Source: an uncultured Clostridia bacterium (GTDB lineage Bacteria > Bacillota > Clostridia > TANB77 > CAG-508). From it: a stretch of 64,000 bases of DNA. The notes under the pieces are model-generated. The model had not been told where the DNA came from and did no database searches. It was given only the letters and a program-made list of their open reading frames with translations. How positions within the stretch are numbered: position 1 is the first letter of the stretch; every line of letters begins with the position of its first letter. The DNA lies in assembly GCA_944390285.1 (NCBI GenBank), contig CALXPN010000003.1, positions 114,285 to 178,284 on the forward strand, in the 5' to 3' direction. A program made the translations under genes and the position numbers. Shown piece after piece: positions 33,532 through 56,446 of this stretch.

Positions 33532-33547
33532 ACCTTCGGGTTATGAG
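33532..33547. repeat. attL core: 16-bp direct repeat accttcgggttatgag identical to 56400..56415
   Basis: Exact 16-mer match to the anticodon-loop/stem segment of the tRNA-fMet gene at the other end of the element. Confidence 0.7.
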
Positions 33548-33604
33548 TAAAGCTCGCAAAGCATTGGTAAATCTAGTTTCGAGCTGTATTTGTTGGTATA
33601 TTTG

Positions 33605-33686
33605 ATGTGCCCAATTTTTTGACTTTGTAAATTTATGTGATTTTGGTTCATTTTTGGACAGTTGTGTGCCCATTTCGAGCCCAATT
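33605..33686. promoter_or_regulatory. candidate integrase arm-type binding sites (GTGCCCAA/T repeats) at the left end of the element
   Basis: tgtgcccaatttttt (33607) and tgtgcccatttcgagcccaatt (33665). The same GC-rich motif recurs at 56281-56332 and is otherwise rare in this AT-rich sequence. Confidence 0.5.
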
Positions 33687-33765
33687 ATTTAGACTGTTAA
33701 AGCTTGTTTGCTACAGTCTAAGTATGCAAAATTTTTGAAGAAAATTTTGTAATTCATTTAGATTT

Positions 33766-34104
33766 ATGGAGGTTTTGATTATGAATAAAAAATGTTTTTG
33801 TTGTTTTAATAATATGAATACAAATAATAAAGATAATGAATTATTAAGTGATTGGTTGGAATTTAGATTTGAAAAATTAGAAACTAATTTAACTGAAAAA
33901 GATAGAAAACATGCTCTTAATTATGATACTTTTGGTGAAAAGATTCTTGATGTTATTCCAGACAAGGATTCTGATTATGTTTCTGATATTCTTGATGATT
34001 TTAGAGAGGAACTTCTAAATCATTGTGTTTATTGGAATGAGAAATATTATACGACTGGAATTAATGATGTTATTAAATTTATTGCTAATGCTTTAAATTC
34101 ATAA
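33766..34104 (+). CDS. hypothetical protein (112 aa)
   Basis: ORF followed by a terminator hairpin. Confidence 0.4.
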   Translation: MEVLIMNKKCFCCFNNMNTNNKDNELLSDWLEFRFEKLETNLTEKDRKHALNYDTFGEKILDVIPDKDSDYVSDILDDFREELLNHCVYWNEKYYTTGINDVIKFIANALNS

Positions 34105-34113
34105 CATATAAAA

Positions 34114-34152
34114 TAAAGTGGGCAATTTGAATTTTCATTGTCCACTTTAAAA
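34114..34152. terminator. hairpin terminator (aaataaagtgggcaa...ttgtccacttt), copy 1 of a duplicated terminator
   Basis: Stem-loop between convergent genes; its 25-nt 5' arm is identical to 36753-36777. Confidence 0.55.
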
Positions 34153-34156
34153 TATT

Positions 34157-54289: not shown

Positions 54290-54319
54290 TACTTATTATT
54301 TATAGAAAAGGGTGATTAA

Positions 54320-54820
54320 ATGAAATCTAAATATATTAAACAAGGCATTATTTTTACTATTGATATGATGTTTCTTCCCTTGATTATAACTTTACTTTCA
54401 AATAATTGGGAACCCATAGCTAATTTCAATGATGGATTGCAACGTTTTATTACATATATTGCTATTTATGAGTTTTTAGCCTTTTTAATAAATAAAAATC
54501 AGCTAGACGCTAGGAAAGATAGTTTATTAATCTATATAACTATTTTAAAAGAAACATTATTATTCATTGAAAATCCTGGCTTTACAACTTTAAAAGATAG
54601 CATATTAAATAAAATAAATAAATTGAATGACAAATCATATTATTTCATTCATGAAGATGTATTAAAAGCCGTAAATTTAATAAAATTAGGTATATCTAAC
54701 AATAATTTAACAAATAAAAAAGCTTTTTTAGAAGCTGAATTAATTAATGTAGAACATCACTATGAATCAGAAGGTTTGTCTTGGAATAATACACTTTTAT
54801 TAAAGTTCTTAAAAAAATAA
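54320..54820 (+). CDS. hypothetical protein (166 aa)
   Basis: ORF only; hydrophobic N-terminal segment. Confidence 0.4.
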   Translation: MKSKYIKQGIIFTIDMMFLPLIITLLSNNWEPIANFNDGLQRFITYIAIYEFLAFLINKNQLDARKDSLLIYITILKETLLFIENPGFTTLKDSILNKINKLNDKSYYFIHEDVLKAVNLIKLGISNNNLTNKKAFLEAELINVEHHYESEGLSWNNTLLLKFLKK

Positions 54821-54858
54821 TATGTCTTCCCTACCACATGAAAGGAGGTGATGAAGGT

Positions 54859-56046
54859 GTGGTAGGAAATATCGAAAAACGTGGAGAGAATTCTTACAGA
54901 TTAAGAGTTTCTGGTGGATATACAGGAGAAGGAAAAAGAATTATTTATAAAAAGACAGTTCAAGCAAAAAATAAAAATGAAGCTAGAAAAGAATTAGCAT
55001 TATTTATATCAGAAATAGAAACTGGACAAGCTTTATCTGCTAAAAAGATGCGTTTTAGAGATTATGCTGATTTTTGGATTAACAATTATGCTATTCCAAA
55101 TTTATCTCCTAAGACTTATGAAAGATATAAAAGTATGTTAAAATCAAGAATTCTCCCCTATCTCGGCAACATGTATTTAGACAAAATTCAACCAATGCAA
55201 TTAATGTATTTATATCAAGAATTGAGTGAGGCAACTTATATTAGAAAAAATATCAAACATAAGTTATCTTCAAAAACTGTACTGGAACATCATAGATTAT
55301 TACATACAATGTTACAACAAGCTGTATATTGGCAAATGATTCCATATAATCCTGCATCAAGAGTAAGACCACCTAAAGCTAAAAAGCCAAATATTAATTT
55401 CTATGATGATGTACAAACAATAGCATTAATTAAAGCATTGGAAGGCGAAGAATTAAAGTTTCGAGTCATTATTCTATTAACAATCTTTACAGGATTAAGA
55501 CGTGGAGAAGTTTTAGGATTAGAATGGCAAGATGTAGACTTTAAGAATTCTTCAATCACTGTAAGACAGGCTAGTCAATATGTTTCTTCCATTGGTATCT
55601 ATACAAAAGGTCCCAAAACAGAAACATCAAACAGGGTTATTAGTATCCCTATCTCAATTACTAAACTTTTAAAAGCTTACAAAAGAAAACAGTTAGAACA
55701 AAGATTAAAATTAGGAGACAAATGGCAAAACACAAATCGATTATTTGTGCAATGGGATGGCTCTCCTATGCATCCAGACACAATTACAAAATGGTTTAGG
55801 CAGTTCCTAGAAGATAAAAACTTGCCACATATTACATTTCATGGCTTACGCCATACACATGCAACTTTGCTTATTGCACAAGGATTAGATGTTAAAACTG
55901 TTAGTAATAGACTTGGACATGCTCAAACATCTACAACATTAAATATCTATGCCCATGCGTTTGCGAAAATGGACAGAGAGGCATCAGATAAACTTGATAA
56001 TCTTCTTTATAGAGAAGATACAAAAAAATATTTTAAAGCCAATTAG
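54859..56046 (+). CDS. int: tyrosine-type site-specific integrase
   Basis: C-terminal catalytic box HGLRHTHATLLIAQGLDVKTVSNRLGHAQTSTTLNIYAH and upstream R (TGLRRGEV). The probable start is the GTG at 54859, 10 nt after AAAGGAGG; the track ATG at 54838 lies inside the RBS region. Confidence 0.85.
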   Translation: MVGNIEKRGENSYRLRVSGGYTGEGKRIIYKKTVQAKNKNEARKELALFISEIETGQALSAKKMRFRDYADFWINNYAIPNLSPKTYERYKSMLKSRILPYLGNMYLDKIQPMQLMYLYQELSEATYIRKNIKHKLSSKTVLEHHRLLHTMLQQAVYWQMIPYNPASRVRPPKAKKPNINFYDDVQTIALIKALEGEELKFRVIILLTIFTGLRRGEVLGLEWQDVDFKNSSITVRQASQYVSSIGIYTKGPKTETSNRVISIPISITKLLKAYKRKQLEQRLKLGDKWQNTNRLFVQWDGSPMHPDTITKWFRQFLEDKNLPHITFHGLRHTHATLLIAQGLDVKTVSNRLGHAQTSTTLNIYAHAFAKMDREASDKLDNLLYREDTKKYFKAN

Positions 56047-56280
56047 AGGCTTATCACATAAATTTATACAAAAAATTGAAAGGAAAAAATTCTATGAAAA
56101 ATTATAATAATAAAGAAGTAAATCAAGATATGGCAGTTTCTGCTTAAATACTTTTAATTAATTTCACAATTTTATATTTTACAATTTAAGCAGAAACAAT
56201 TTATTTCAAATAGAATTTAATCAAATATACTTTTAAATATCGAAAATTCAAGGTTTACCAGTAACCTTTTTACATAGATC

Positions 56281-56332
56281 TGTGCCCAAATGGTGCCCAA
56301 TTTATTTTATGTAACTTTTAATGGGCAAAAAT
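56281..56332. promoter_or_regulatory. candidate integrase arm-type sites at the right end (tgtgcccaaa, tggtgcccaattt, inverted atgggcaaaaat)
   Basis: Same GTGCCCAA/T motif as at 33605-33686. Confidence 0.5.
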
Positions 56333-56370
56333 AAAGAGTCCACAATCTCTTGCGACTCTAGTTAAATCTT

Positions 56371-56446
56371 TGGTTGCGGGGGTAAGACTCGAACTTACGA
56401 CCTTCGGGTTATGAGCCCGACGAGCTGCCAACTGCTCCACCCCGCG
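56371..56446 (-). tRNA. initiator tRNA-fMet (anticodon CAU)
   Basis: Cloverleaf with C1:A72 mismatch, three G-C pairs in the anticodon stem (TCGGG/CCCGA), loop CTCATAA, T arm GTAAG-TTCGAGT-CTTAC, and CCA encoded. Confidence 0.85.
56400..56415. repeat. attR core: 16-bp direct repeat accttcgggttatgag within the tRNA-fMet anticodon stem-loop
   Basis: Identical to 33532..33547. Confidence 0.7.

What the first reader, a model, noticed from the sequence alone, without database searches (positions are those of the whole stretch)
33532..56415. 22.9 kb satellite/PICI-like integrative element at tRNA-fMet with a 16-bp core and GTGCCCAA-type arm sites
An exact 16-mer (accttcgggttatgag) occurs at 33532 and again at 56400. 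The right copy lies in the anticodon loop, 3' stem and variable region of an intact initiator tRNA gene. A tyrosine integrase gene sits next to that end. The interior carries xis, a cI-like repressor and a RusA/DnaC/replisome-organiser replication module, but no capsid, tail or conjugation genes. A GC-rich motif (GTGCCCAA/T) that is very rare in this AT-rich sequence is clustered just inside both ends, as integrase arm-type sites would be. The cargo is almost entirely defence genes. This is the architecture of a phage satellite or integrative mobilisable defence island.
Basis: partly seen in the sequence, partly recalled or inferred. Interest (0 to 1): 0.65.

Follow-up and report, generated by a model that had tools for sequence, protein, structure and literature searches.

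The report
Defence island integrated at initiator tRNA
A 22.9-kb mobile DNA island full of anti-phage genes sits in the initiator-tRNA gene of an uncultured human-gut Clostridia bacterium; it is real and has moved recently, and it belongs to a large, uncharacterised family that works in a conventional way, but nothing shows it is a phage satellite.

Summary
The 16-mer occurs only at 33532 and 56400, and the right copy is positions 32-47 of an intact initiator tRNA. GTGCCCAA-type repeats lie just inside both ends. Seven other strains of the same species (flanks 99.2-99.9% identical) lose similarity to the window exactly at 33547/33548 and carry different islands there. About 40 metagenomic loci with an 88-98% identical integrase lose similarity exactly at 56415. 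The same backbone lies at the orthologous tRNA in another species (island 94-96% identical, flanking genes 67-68%). The left 10.6 kb recurs at 99% identity in other genomic contexts. The arm repeats are conserved where their surroundings diverge, and related integrase families carry their own motif variants at both ends. The islands supply the tRNA 3' half, with compensatory T-stem changes, plus a terminator. They often stand in tandem arrays. No capsid, terminase, relaxase or T4SS gene was found. The RusA call is unsupported and the satellite label is unproven. No empty site was found, and the chromosomal left junction keeps only 14-16 bp of tRNA sequence. Verdict: a genuine tyrosine-integrase defence island, a new member of a known kind, of moderate interest.

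The parts
33532..33547 (+). Left junction core (attL): 16 bp identical to tRNA-fMet positions 32-47 (reverse complement). The flank to its left is not tRNA sequence.
   Evidence: Seven other strains diverge from the window exactly at 33547/33548.
33607..33684 (+). Int-distal arm-type sites: GTGCCCAA (33607-33614), GTGCCCAT (33666-33673) and GAGCCCAA (33677-33684). The last two are 11 bp apart.
   Evidence: Other element families carry their own xxxCCCAA pair at the homologous place.
33781..34104 (+). Small far-end ORF (107 aa), function unknown. A gene of this kind sits at the int-distal end of other element families.
   Evidence: 36% identical (E 1e-21) to the 97-aa far-end ORF of an L008-type element. 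Exact copies lie in other contexts.
34157..36511 (-). AEP-TOTE primase-polymerase fused to an SF2 helicase (784 aa). It could be conflict-system cargo or the element's own primase-helicase.
   Evidence: Pfam PF22548 E 5e-94, ResIII, Helicase_C. PADLOC PrimPol.
36942..39654 (-). Cargo: Schlafen AlbA_2 + HATPase_c_4 protein (36942-38390), metallophosphoesterase (38500-39261), small membrane protein (39289-39654).
39700..41429 (-). Ubiquitin-like conjugation trio: DUF6527/BubE (39700-40047), DUF6791+ThiF E1-like (40037-41197), Multi_ubiq (41172-41429). This is a candidate Bub-type defence system.
   Evidence: Pfam name BubE. Weak PADLOC E1-E2 hits.
41652..43132 (-). Two-gene cargo of unknown function: a 190-aa protein with weak C-terminal similarity to wHTH regulators, and a 285-aa HATPase-like protein.
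43158..49055 (-). Type I restriction-modification: hsdR (43158-46286), split hsdS (46290-46574 and 46841-47494), hsdM (47496-49055).
   Evidence: A type I R-M system follows p313 in all ten annotated relatives.
49153..50991 (-). Two conserved backbone genes of unknown function: p313 (49153-50094; predicted N-terminal helix-strand unit I read as winged-helix-like, plus an alpha/beta domain) and p207 (50368-50991).
   Evidence: Conserved at 87-96% nucleotide identity with the backbone in more than 30 loci. No family hits. AF2 model pLDDT 87.8. No PDB match. Best viral match is an uncharacterised Bacillus phage JL protein.
51082..52384 (-). Replication module: DnaC-like helicase loader (51082-51948) and phage replisome organiser (51908-52384).
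52421..52660 (-). HTH_17 (MerR/excisionase-type) protein, the presumed Xis/regulator. It is transcribed divergently from the repressor.
   Evidence: The identical protein is indexed in 599 blocks of the metagenome collection.
52764..54820 (+). HTH_3 + DUF6076 repressor-like protein (probable start 52827, 326 aa), GNAT acetyltransferase (53804-54289) and a 166-aa unknown (54320-54820). The genes between repressor and integrase vary among relatives.
54838..56046 (+). Tyrosine integrase (402 aa). The catalytic motifs RRGE, HGLRHT and GHA..IYAH are visible, and there is a weak N-terminal Arm-DNA-bind_4 match.
   Evidence: At most 44% identical to integrases of reference phages and plasmids.
56282..56300 (+). 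Int-proximal arm-type sites: GTGCCCAAatgGTGCCCAA, a direct repeat with an 11-bp period.
   Evidence: Recognisable in all 26 aligned relatives, with single-base variants in some, including the most divergent ones where the surroundings differ.
56326..56359 (-). Hairpin plus U-run just downstream of the tRNA: an element-borne terminator-like structure.
   Evidence: -12.3 kcal/mol, z -1.85. Retained in 24 of 26 aligned relatives.
56371..56399 (-). Element-borne 3' half of tRNA-fMet (positions 48-76).
   Evidence: It travels with the integrase in other genomes even where no tRNA 5' half follows. Its T-stem shows compensatory variants.
56400..56415 (+). Right junction core (attR) inside the tRNA. 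The crossover is inferred to lie in TTATGAG (the anticodon loop).
   Evidence: Similarity of related elements to the window ends exactly at 56415.
56416..56490 (-). Chromosomal part of the gene: tRNA 5' half (56416-56446) and a sigma-70-like promoter, TTGACA-17-TAAAAT (56462-56490).

Best explanation
Window 33548-56399 is a site-specific integrative genomic island. It belongs to a large superfamily found in uncultured low-GC gut Clostridia.

Shown: the island is a discrete unit bounded by the two core copies. Other strains carry different islands between the same points. Near-identical copies occur in other species and other loci. The islands often stand head-to-tail in arrays that share the core.

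Inferred mechanism: the 402-aa tyrosine integrase binds the family-specific arm repeats (GTGCCCAA type) on both sides of attP through its N-terminal arm-binding domain. It binds the G:C-rich anticodon-stem sequences as core-type sites. It exchanges strands within the 7-nt anticodon loop (TTATGAG on the + strand) of the initiator tRNA gene. The island brings its own copy of tRNA positions 32-76 plus a terminator, so the gene stays functional. The chromosome provides the promoter and positions 1-31. The HTH_17 protein acts as excisionase/regulator and the HTH_3 protein as repressor of a divergent early operon. After excision the replisome-organiser/DnaC module replicates the circle.

The cargo is a type I R-M system, a ubiquitin-like (Bub-type) trio, a Schlafen/AlbA_2 ATPase and an AEP primase-helicase. 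It is mainly anti-phage defence. The route of cell-to-cell transfer is not encoded in any recognisable way. My best guess is phage-dependent induction and packaging, or uptake of the excised circle. This is a guess, not a finding.
For: - Boundaries: the exact 16-mer is present only twice. Seven conspecific strains with 99.2-99.9% identical left flank lose similarity at 33547/33548 and carry other cargo there, such as retron-like RT, Qat genes, AbiE and other R-M systems. Loci with an 88-98% identical integrase lose similarity at 56415.
- Mobility: L094 is a second strain with the same island at the same site (99.69% over 16.5 kb). L191 has the backbone at 94-96% identity at the orthologous tRNA, next to PBP5/LytR genes that are only 67-68% identical. 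Window 33533-44125 recurs at 99% identity beside unrelated flanks.
- Arm sites: 4 of the 6 GTGCCCAW copies lie at the ends. The int-proximal pair is recognisable in all 26 aligned relatives. Other families carry TTTACCCAA, TTCCCCAA or GTCCCCAA pairs 11 bp apart at the far end. A 50%-identity integrase family has those same motifs next to int. There is a weak Arm-DNA-bind_4 match at integrase residues 20-64.
- Crossover and core: GTTATGAG is shared by all junctions examined, including the core variants found with up to 2 mismatches. Conservation stops immediately to its right. Some far ends begin with CCCG, which gives CGGG-TTATGAG-CCCG.
- tRNA completion: 13 of 14 variants of the tRNA 3' half seen among the loci keep 5/5 T-stem pairs. 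A promoter lies on the chromosomal side and a hairpin on the island side.
- Tandem arrays: in 62 of 92 junctions a tRNA 3' half plus core is followed by something other than the 5' half. For several this is the recognisable far end of another element type.
- A real prophage (tail-fibre gene plus integrase) uses the same site.
Against: - No empty site and no circular attP junction was found in any contig.
- The int-distal junction lacks the displaced tRNA 3' half that the standard model predicts. This holds in the window and in four other contexts.
- Some relatives lack the tRNA 3' half altogether.
- Arm-site and overlap assignments rest on comparative sequence only.
- The Arm-DNA-bind_4 match is below Pfam's cut-off.
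- The terminator hairpin is only modestly stable (z -1.85).
- hsdS is split, so the R-M system may not be intact.
Confidence: 0.85

Rival explanations
1. It is a phage satellite (PICI-like). A helper phage protein lifts the HTH_3 repressor, the island excises and replicates, and it is packaged into helper capsids. p207 and p313 would be the unrecognised hijacking functions.
For: - Layout int - accessory - repressor | xis - replication, as in Gram-positive PICIs.
- The repressor showed no peptidase-type self-cleavage domain match, only HTH families and DUF6076.
- Defence cargo is typical of satellites (PMC10085698).
- A prophage with a tail-fibre gene uses the same att site.
- The p313 fold has its best match in a Bacillus phage protein.
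- Capsid-less satellites of S. thermophilus have a similar make-up (PMC13376191).
Against: - No small terminase, capsid-morphogenesis, portal or other packaging gene in Pfam or PHROGs.
- The replication module is organiser + DnaC, not the PICI primase-replicase.
- At 22.9 kb it is above the usual 7-20 kb.
- The integrase family is absent from IMG/VR by the scan used. The backbone has no DNA match and p313 no protein match in 50,697 phage records.
- No helper phage has been identified.
Confidence: 0.3
2. It is an integrative mobilisable element that borrows a conjugative apparatus, for example the T4SS-like cluster just to its left (3450-27450).
For: - A T4SS-like cluster (VirB4-like, TraC-like, several pilin-like genes) lies next to the island in all strains.
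- IMEs commonly sit in tRNA genes, carry replisome-organiser-type replication genes and form tandem accretions (PMC5704250).
Against: - No relaxase, Rep_trans, coupling protein or recognisable oriT in the island.
- The neighbouring cluster itself shows no relaxase or T4CP among the ORFs scanned. It is conserved in all strains rather than travelling with the island.
- The same island occurs in genomes with other neighbourhoods.
Confidence: 0.12
3. It is a decayed prophage remnant, now immobile. The repeats only mark an old insertion.
For: - The integrase, repressor, xis and replication genes are phage-like.
- hsdS is split.
- Some strains have lost the left core (L006/L009).
Against: - The same capsid-less backbone is kept at 87-96% nucleotide identity in dozens of loci with intact ORFs.
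- 99% identical copies lie in different genomic contexts and in a species whose flanking genes are only 67-68% identical.
- Conspecific strains differ in which island they hold.
Confidence: 0.05
4. The 16-mer pair is a coincidence or a dispersed genomic repeat, and there is no element.
For: None beyond the shortness of the repeat.
Against: - Expected count is 0.04.
- GGGTTATGAG occurs zero times in 1.35 Mb of related chromosomes.
- Both ends coincide to the base with breakpoints in other genomes.
Confidence: 0.01

Closest known systems
Genomic islands and prophages that integrate in the anticodon loop of tRNA genes through lambda-type tyrosine integrases with arm sites (the sublocation classes described by Williams, 2002; cited from memory)
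   Same: - The integrase gene lies next to the tRNA.
- The inferred crossover is in the 7-nt anticodon loop, flanked by the symmetric stem.
- The element carries the tRNA segment from the crossover to the 3' end, so the gene is restored.
- Arm-type repeats lie on both sides of attP, and an Xis-type HTH protein is present.
   Different: - The target is the initiator tRNA.
- The displaced original 3' half is missing at the distal junction; only 14-16 bp remain.
- Some relatives have dropped the tRNA 3' half.
Tandem accretion of ICEs, IMEs and CIMEs at tRNA-Lys and other sites in streptococci (PMC5704250)
   Same: [quoted passage not shown]
- This gives head-to-tail arrays with chimeric internal att sites and decayed members.
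   Different: - No conjugation or mobilisation genes here.
- The arrays are built from many families that share one core but have different arm motifs.
PICIs / SaPIs (five core components listed in PMC10085698)
   Same: - Integrase, a divergent repressor/regulator pair, an own replication module and accessory defence genes.
- No structural genes.
   Different: - No terS and no capsid-morphogenesis gene.
- Replisome organiser + DnaC instead of Pri-Rep.
- Larger size.
- Helper dependence unknown.
StCI satellites of Streptococcus thermophilus (PMC13376191)
   Same: Integrase plus regulation plus replication genes between attL and attR, no structural genes, and phage resistance as the benefit.
   Different: - No sequence relationship to StCIs was tested.
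- Induction by virulent phages and transfer by natural competence are shown for StCIs and untested here.
Pipolins and other defence-island platforms at tRNA genes (PMC11551731; PMC10201445)
   Same: Integrative elements flanked by direct repeats at tRNA genes, with a conserved backbone and an exchangeable set of defence systems.
   Different: No pPolB, a different backbone and a different host phylum.

Membership tests
Tyrosine-recombinase integrative element at a tRNA gene | Tyrosine integrase with catalytic R..K..HxxR..H..Y next to the attachment site | tested here: met
   Phage_integrase E 1e-28 and Phage_int_SAM_3. phrog_1 E 7e-84. RRGE, HGLRHT and GHA...IYAH are visible in the translation.
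Tyrosine-recombinase integrative element at a tRNA gene | Direct repeat of tRNA-derived sequence at both ends, with the boundaries coinciding with polymorphism between genomes | tested here: met
Tyrosine-recombinase integrative element at a tRNA gene | The element restores the tRNA by carrying its 3' part | tested here: met
   tRNA positions 48-76 travel with the integrase in other genomes. T-stem covariation.
Tyrosine-recombinase integrative element at a tRNA gene | The displaced original tRNA 3' fragment is present at the distal junction | tested here: not met
   Only 16 bp are shared. No other tRNA remnant lies in the window. The same holds in four other contexts.
Tyrosine-recombinase integrative element at a tRNA gene | Empty attB and/or circular attP observed | tested here: not met
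   No such junction in any contig fetched. Contigs from the right flank mostly break inside the tRNA.
Tyrosine-recombinase integrative element at a tRNA gene | Arm-type integrase binding sites on both arms of attP | tested here: met
   By sequence comparison only. Binding itself cannot be tested here.
PICI (PMC10085698) | Integrase | tested here: met
PICI (PMC10085698) | Regulation module (alpA / merR / stl homologue) | tested here: met
   HTH_17 protein and a divergent HTH_3 repressor.
PICI (PMC10085698) | Primase-replicase module | tested here: inconclusive
   Replisome organiser + DnaC-like instead. An AEP primase-helicase lies at the far end, but Pfam annotates it as a conflict-system domain.
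PICI (PMC10085698) | Capsid-morphogenesis gene | tested here: not met
   The island's 23 long ORFs (listed at >=60 aa, excluding short ORFs nested inside longer genes) were scanned against Pfam; the backbone and far-end ORFs were also scanned against PHROGs. No hit.
PICI (PMC10085698) | Small terminase subunit | tested here: not met
   No hit. The unknowns p207, p313 and p166 cannot be excluded by sequence.
PICI (PMC10085698) | Induction and packaging by a helper phage | not testable with these tools
   Needs experiments.
Integrative mobilisable element (PMC5704250) | Relaxase and/or oriT | tested here: not met
   No relaxase or Rep_trans family hit. oriT was not searched by structure.
Integrative conjugative element | Own T4SS and coupling protein inside the element | tested here: not met
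   None between 33548 and 56370. The T4SS-like cluster lies outside and is conserved in all strains.
Temperate prophage | Capsid, portal, terminase, tail and lysis genes | tested here: not met
   The ten annotated relatives of the backbone also lack them within 10 kb.
Defence-island hotspot | Conserved flanks with different defence cargo in different strains | tested here: met
   R-M systems, RT + AAA_21/RloB, Qat genes, AbiEii, HEPN and others at the same junction.
Type I restriction-modification system | hsdR, hsdM and an intact two-TRD hsdS | tested here: inconclusive
   hsdR and hsdM look complete. hsdS is split into 217-aa and 94-aa ORFs, against 383-410 aa in relatives.

The most novel reading that the evidence does not exclude
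The island family is a new kind of phage satellite, or phage-triggered defence island, widespread in human-gut Clostridia. Its conserved unknown genes (p313, p207 and the ~100-aa far-end ORF) would be a new induction, hijacking or transfer module. In addition, the chromosomal initiator-tRNA copy at this locus exists only as a promoter plus 5' fragment that is completed by whichever island is resident, so excision without replacement would kill the gene. This would be a built-in retention mechanism.
Probability: 0.2. Interest if true: 0.6.

Novelty: new member of a known kind. Interest (0 to 1): 0.4.

Why it matters
The finding gives a base-precise description of an integration system that is very common in human-gut metagenomes. 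The Xis-like protein alone is indexed in 599 blocks of the metagenome collection. The hosts are an uncultured Clostridia lineage for which no genetic tools exist.

The core, the family-specific arm motifs and the matching integrases form a ready-made set of orthogonal attP/integrase pairs that all aim at one universal target, the anticodon loop of tRNA-fMet. The variable cargo next to a conserved backbone is a good place to look for new defence systems.

Biologically it is a clear example of tandem accretion and rapid island turnover at one tRNA gene. It extends known principles rather than overturning them.

Tried and rejected
- **Empty site in related species.** Two genome-contig scans were run. 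The 262-aa left-flank protein found nothing. The MatE fusion found 80 related species, but none keeps the neighbourhood, the tRNA or the core. Orthologues of the 262-aa gene in two closer species sit in another context, without tRNA or core.
- **Empty site in conspecific strains.** Look-ups with four flank proteins (the left-flank one retried once with a corrected start) gave no unoccupied site. Contigs coming from the right flank end inside the tRNA.
- **Circular form.** No attP junction among the fetched loci and none in IMG/VR.
- **A decayed tRNA 3' half left of 33532.** Not present.
- **RusA.** Not supported for p207.
- **My guess that p313 is a 'replication-relaxation' type protein.** It rested on the N-terminal motif only and got no support.
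- **Phage relatives.** No backbone DNA match. The integrase is at most 44% identical and DnaC at most 33% identical to reference phage proteins.
- **Iterons or an origin in the replication region.** Nothing convincing.
- **Literature search for 'TOTE conflict system'.** Nothing found.

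
Full report
**1. The observation**

The 16-mer ACCTTCGGGTTATGAG is present exactly twice in the 64-kb window, at 33532 and 56400, even when two mismatches are allowed. Shuffled sequence gives 0.04 matches. ARAGORN places a tRNA-Met(CAT) on the minus strand at 56371-56446. The right 16-mer is therefore tRNA positions 32-47. The gene reads CGCGGGG...TCGGG-CTCATAA-CCCGA...CCCCGCAACCA. 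It has the C1:A72 mismatch and three G:C pairs next to the anticodon loop, which mark a bacterial initiator tRNA (hallmarks from my own knowledge).

GTGCCCAW occurs six times in the window against 0.89 expected. Four copies lie 60-130 bp inside the two cores, and a variant, GAGCCCAA, is at 33677.

Pfam, PHROGs, PADLOC and NCBIfam scans of the island's ORFs give these genes:
- a tyrosine integrase (54838-56046);
- an HTH_3/DUF6076 repressor, divergent from an HTH_17 excisionase-type gene;
- a replisome organiser and a DnaC-like loader;
- two unknowns (207 and 313 aa);
- a type I R-M system with a split hsdS;
- a HATPase-like pair;
- a Multi_ubiq / E1 / DUF6527 (BubE) trio;
- a metallophosphatase;
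- a Schlafen AlbA_2 ATPase;
- an AEP-TOTE primase-helicase.

No capsid, terminase, tail, lysis, relaxase or T4SS gene was found.

**2. The left boundary is real**

The left-flank gene (262 aa, 32479-33267) is found unchanged in many human-gut metagenome assemblies. In seven of ten contigs shown, the flank is 99.2-99.9% identical to the window. Similarity stops exactly at 33547/33548, the inner edge of the 16-mer. To the right of that point each strain has a different island. The cargo includes other R-M systems, a reverse transcriptase with AAA_21/RloB, Qat genes, AbiEii and HEPN proteins. One strain has an integrase directly at this junction. Two strains (L006, L009) have lost the core through a deletion with a breakpoint at 33418. 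One contig (L094) is a second strain, 99.69% identical over 16.5 kb, with the same island at the same tRNA.

**3. The right boundary is real, and the island is mobile**

A metagenome scan with the integrase returned about 40 loci at 88-98% protein identity and about 40 more from a family at roughly 50%. In most of the close loci that reach the att site, similarity to the window ends exactly at 56415, the outer edge of the core. In seven it ends earlier, near 56300, and these lack the tRNA 3' half (see section 6).

The conserved backbone is window 49063-52676 plus 54827-56415. The stretch between repressor and integrase varies, and so does everything left of hsdM.

L191 is a 1.65-Mb contig. Its backbone is 94-96% identical to the window and sits at an intact tRNA-fMet next to PBP5 and LytR genes that are only 67-68% identical. 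That is horizontal transfer between species into the orthologous site.

The island's left 10.6 kb (33533-44125) recurs at 99% identity beside unrelated flanks: CBAH/GmrSD/ComM, acyltransferase/DAGK and peptidase_M14/GroES.

The HTH_17 protein alone is indexed in 599 blocks of the collection. The host is an uncultured low-GC gut Clostridia lineage, with relatives labelled 'Clostridium sp. CAG:440' and similar MAG names. The species itself is not among the GTDB representatives.

**4. Arm-type sites**

The int-proximal pair GTGCCCAAatgGTGCCCAAt has an 11-bp period and is recognisable in all 26 aligned relatives. A minority carry single-base variants (GTGCCAA, GTGCCCAT). The three most divergent relatives also keep the pair, although their surrounding sequence has changed.

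The far ends of other element types carry their own pair of direct repeats 11 bp apart, 120-160 bp from the core. Examples are TTTACCCAA, TTCCCCAA, GTCCCCAA, ATCCCCAA, GTGGTCAAA and ACCCTTTAT. The 50%-identity integrase family has TTTACCCAA or TTCCCCAA pairs at the homologous int-proximal position. So the motif is present on both arms and changes together with the integrase lineage, which is what arm-type sites should do.

Integrase residues 20-64 match the whole Arm-DNA-bind_4 profile, but only weakly (E 0.014, below the cut-off).

**5. Core and crossover**

Across all junctions examined, GTTATGAG is shared, including in the core variants found with up to two mismatches. Conservation falls to background immediately to its right. 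Variants occur only to its left (ACCTTAGAG, ACCTTGGGG, CAACAACGGG). Several far ends start with CCCG, which gives the inverted arrangement CGGG-TTATGAG-CCCG. In the tRNA this is the anticodon stem around the 7-nt loop. I therefore place the 7-bp overlap in the anticodon loop and the core-type sites in the stem. This is an inference from sequence, not a mapped cleavage.

**6. What the island gives the tRNA**

In 81 of the 92 junctions collected, a tRNA 3' half (positions 48-76) lies directly left of the core. In the integrase-selected loci it sits next to the integrase and so is element-borne. Among the loci there are 14 sequence variants of this 3' half. Thirteen keep all five T-stem pairs through compensatory changes: GTAAG/CTTAC, GATAG/CTATC, CCAGG/CCTGG, GAAGG/CCTTC and others. 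A hairpin followed by a U-run sits just after the tRNA and is retained in 24 of the 26 relatives. The promoter (TTGACA-17-TAAAAT, 11 of 12 matches) and tRNA positions 1-31 are chromosomal.

A subset of relatives has replaced the tRNA 3' half with unrelated sequence...CCACAACAAC-GGGTTATGAG.

**7. Tandem arrays**

Only 19 of the 92 junctions are complete tRNAs. In 62, a tRNA 3' half plus core is followed by something else. Several of these sequences are the far ends already seen in other strains:
- L138 continues into the L007-type end;
- L115 continues into the L004-type end, which carries an integrase;
- L111 continues into the L013-type end.

This is the accretion pattern described for streptococcal ICEs, IMEs and CIMEs (PMC5704250). 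IMG/VR contigs also carry the tRNA 3' half plus core with yet other arm repeats. One of them (L217) has a tail-fibre-like gene beside its integrase, so true prophages use the same site.

**8. What does not fit**

The standard model predicts the displaced original tRNA 3' half at the int-distal junction. It is absent in the window and in the four other contexts of this island. Each of those shows a non-tRNA flank, then (G)(C/G)CTTCGGGTTATGAG, then the island end.

The core is not a chance pseudo-site, because GGGTTATGAG does not occur in 1.35 Mb of related chromosomes.

Orthologues of the 262-aa gene in two related species have neither a tRNA nor a core upstream. Homology to the window ends about 80 bp before the start codon.

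The mirror case also exists. L189 has int, tRNA 3' half and core directly beside Fer4/PFOR genes, with no tRNA 5' half.

My best explanation is that non-functional tRNA remnants at old array ends are eroded down to the part still needed for recombination, about 8-9 bp of core-type site plus the overlap. Alternatively, the neighbours are ends of tRNA-less relatives. Either way, precise excision of the window island would leave a tRNA gene cut off after position 47. No empty site and no circular junction was found anywhere.

**9. Lifestyle**

Measured against the five PICI core components (PMC10085698), the island has the integrase and the regulators. Its replication module is of another type. 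It lacks a recognisable capsid-morphogenesis gene and small terminase. It would be at best a 'type C' hit, which that paper treats as unreliable.

It has no relaxase, so it does not meet the IME definition (PMC5704250).

Its conserved unknowns remain uncharacterised:
- p313 belongs to a narrow family (72 clusters in 1.84 billion representatives) and gives a confident model (pLDDT 87.8). There is no PDB match, and the best viral match is an uncharacterised Bacillus phage protein.
- p207 has no hits at all.
- The ~100-aa far-end ORF is shared with at least one other element family.

A phage-triggered, satellite-like life cycle is the most attractive guess, given the repressor/xis/replication layout. 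Capsid-less satellites that move by natural competence are now known (PMC13376191). I put this guess at about 0.3.

**10. Verdict**

The finding is a genuine, recently mobile tyrosine-integrase island in the initiator tRNA gene, with correctly spotted arm sites and mostly defence cargo. It is a new member of a known kind. Tandem accretion at tRNA genes, defence cargo on integrative elements and anticodon-loop integration are all established. What is new is the family itself, its abundance in an uncultured gut lineage, the matched set of arm motifs and integrases on one shared core, and the consistently truncated distal junction. Interest is moderate (0.4).

Noticed in passing
window 3450-27450 (minus strand); also 59611-60024: A large T4SS-like cluster: a VirB4-like ATPase (20993-22987), a TraC-like protein (23006-24268), at least six small T4SS_pilin/TrbC-like genes (24269-27450), three giant proteins without domain hits (889, 927 and 1370 aa) and a G5-SH3-glucosaminidase (3450-4808). 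Its island-proximal part is present in the other strains whose contigs reach it. No relaxase or coupling protein was seen among the ORFs scanned. Another pilin-like gene lies to the right of the island.
   Followed up: partly
window 32192-32421; L009 7449-12153 and L011 6363-11067: Two conspecific strains carry a type II CRISPR-Cas locus (Cas9, Cas1, Cas2) between the 262-aa gene and the GTP cyclohydrolase I gene. The window has only a 230-bp spacer there.
   Followed up: partly
window 46290-47494: The type I hsdS gene is split into a 217-aa and a 94-aa ORF with a 266-bp gap. Relatives have 383-410-aa HsdS proteins. They often have extra genes embedded between hsdM and hsdR, including ones with KwaA, AbiJ and Abi_C domains.
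   Followed up: partly
window 33418 (breakpoint); L006 and L009: In two strains the left core has been deleted and a metallophosphatase gene is fused to the flank about 115 bp closer to the 262-aa gene. That island end can no longer recombine.
   Followed up: partly
L112, L114, L118, L123, L124, L134, L135 (about 100 bp beyond the arm pair): Elements with an 88-95% identical integrase lack the tRNA 3' half. Their int-proximal end reads ...CCACAACAAC-GGGTTATGAG, so they would inactivate the tRNA if they sat next to its 5' half.
   Followed up: partly
L192 about 9690-9767: A scar-like GCCTTTGAG (the core minus seven bases) lies 41 bp to the left of the intact core. It sits at the position where the related contig L197 has its junction.
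   Followed up: no
L189 about 6160-6260: Integrase, tRNA 3' half and core lie directly beside ferredoxin and pyruvate:ferredoxin oxidoreductase genes, with no tRNA 5' half. This is an island at a site where the tRNA gene no longer exists.
   Followed up: no
window 39700-41429: The Multi_ubiq, DUF6791+ThiF (E1-like) and DUF6527 genes form a compact trio. The precomputed Pfam listing now names DUF6527 'BubE', which points to a bacterial ubiquitination-like defence system. No JAB or Otu peptidase gene is adjacent.
   Followed up: no
window 27580-29586: A fusion of a MatE efflux protein with a cytidylate-kinase-like domain (668 aa) is conserved at 65-79% identity in at least 80 related species.
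   Followed up: no
L217-L222 (IMG/VR contigs): Predicted viral contigs carry the same tRNA 3' half plus core with further arm-repeat types (ATTACGCCTAAA x2, GTGACCAAAGTGTGACAA, CCGCCGATTTTTCGCCGTTT). L217 has a tail-fibre-like gene, so prophages compete for the same site.
   Followed up: partly
window 3494-3501 and 57024-57031: Two further GTGCCCAA copies lie outside the island, inside coding regions. They look like chance occurrences.
   Followed up: no
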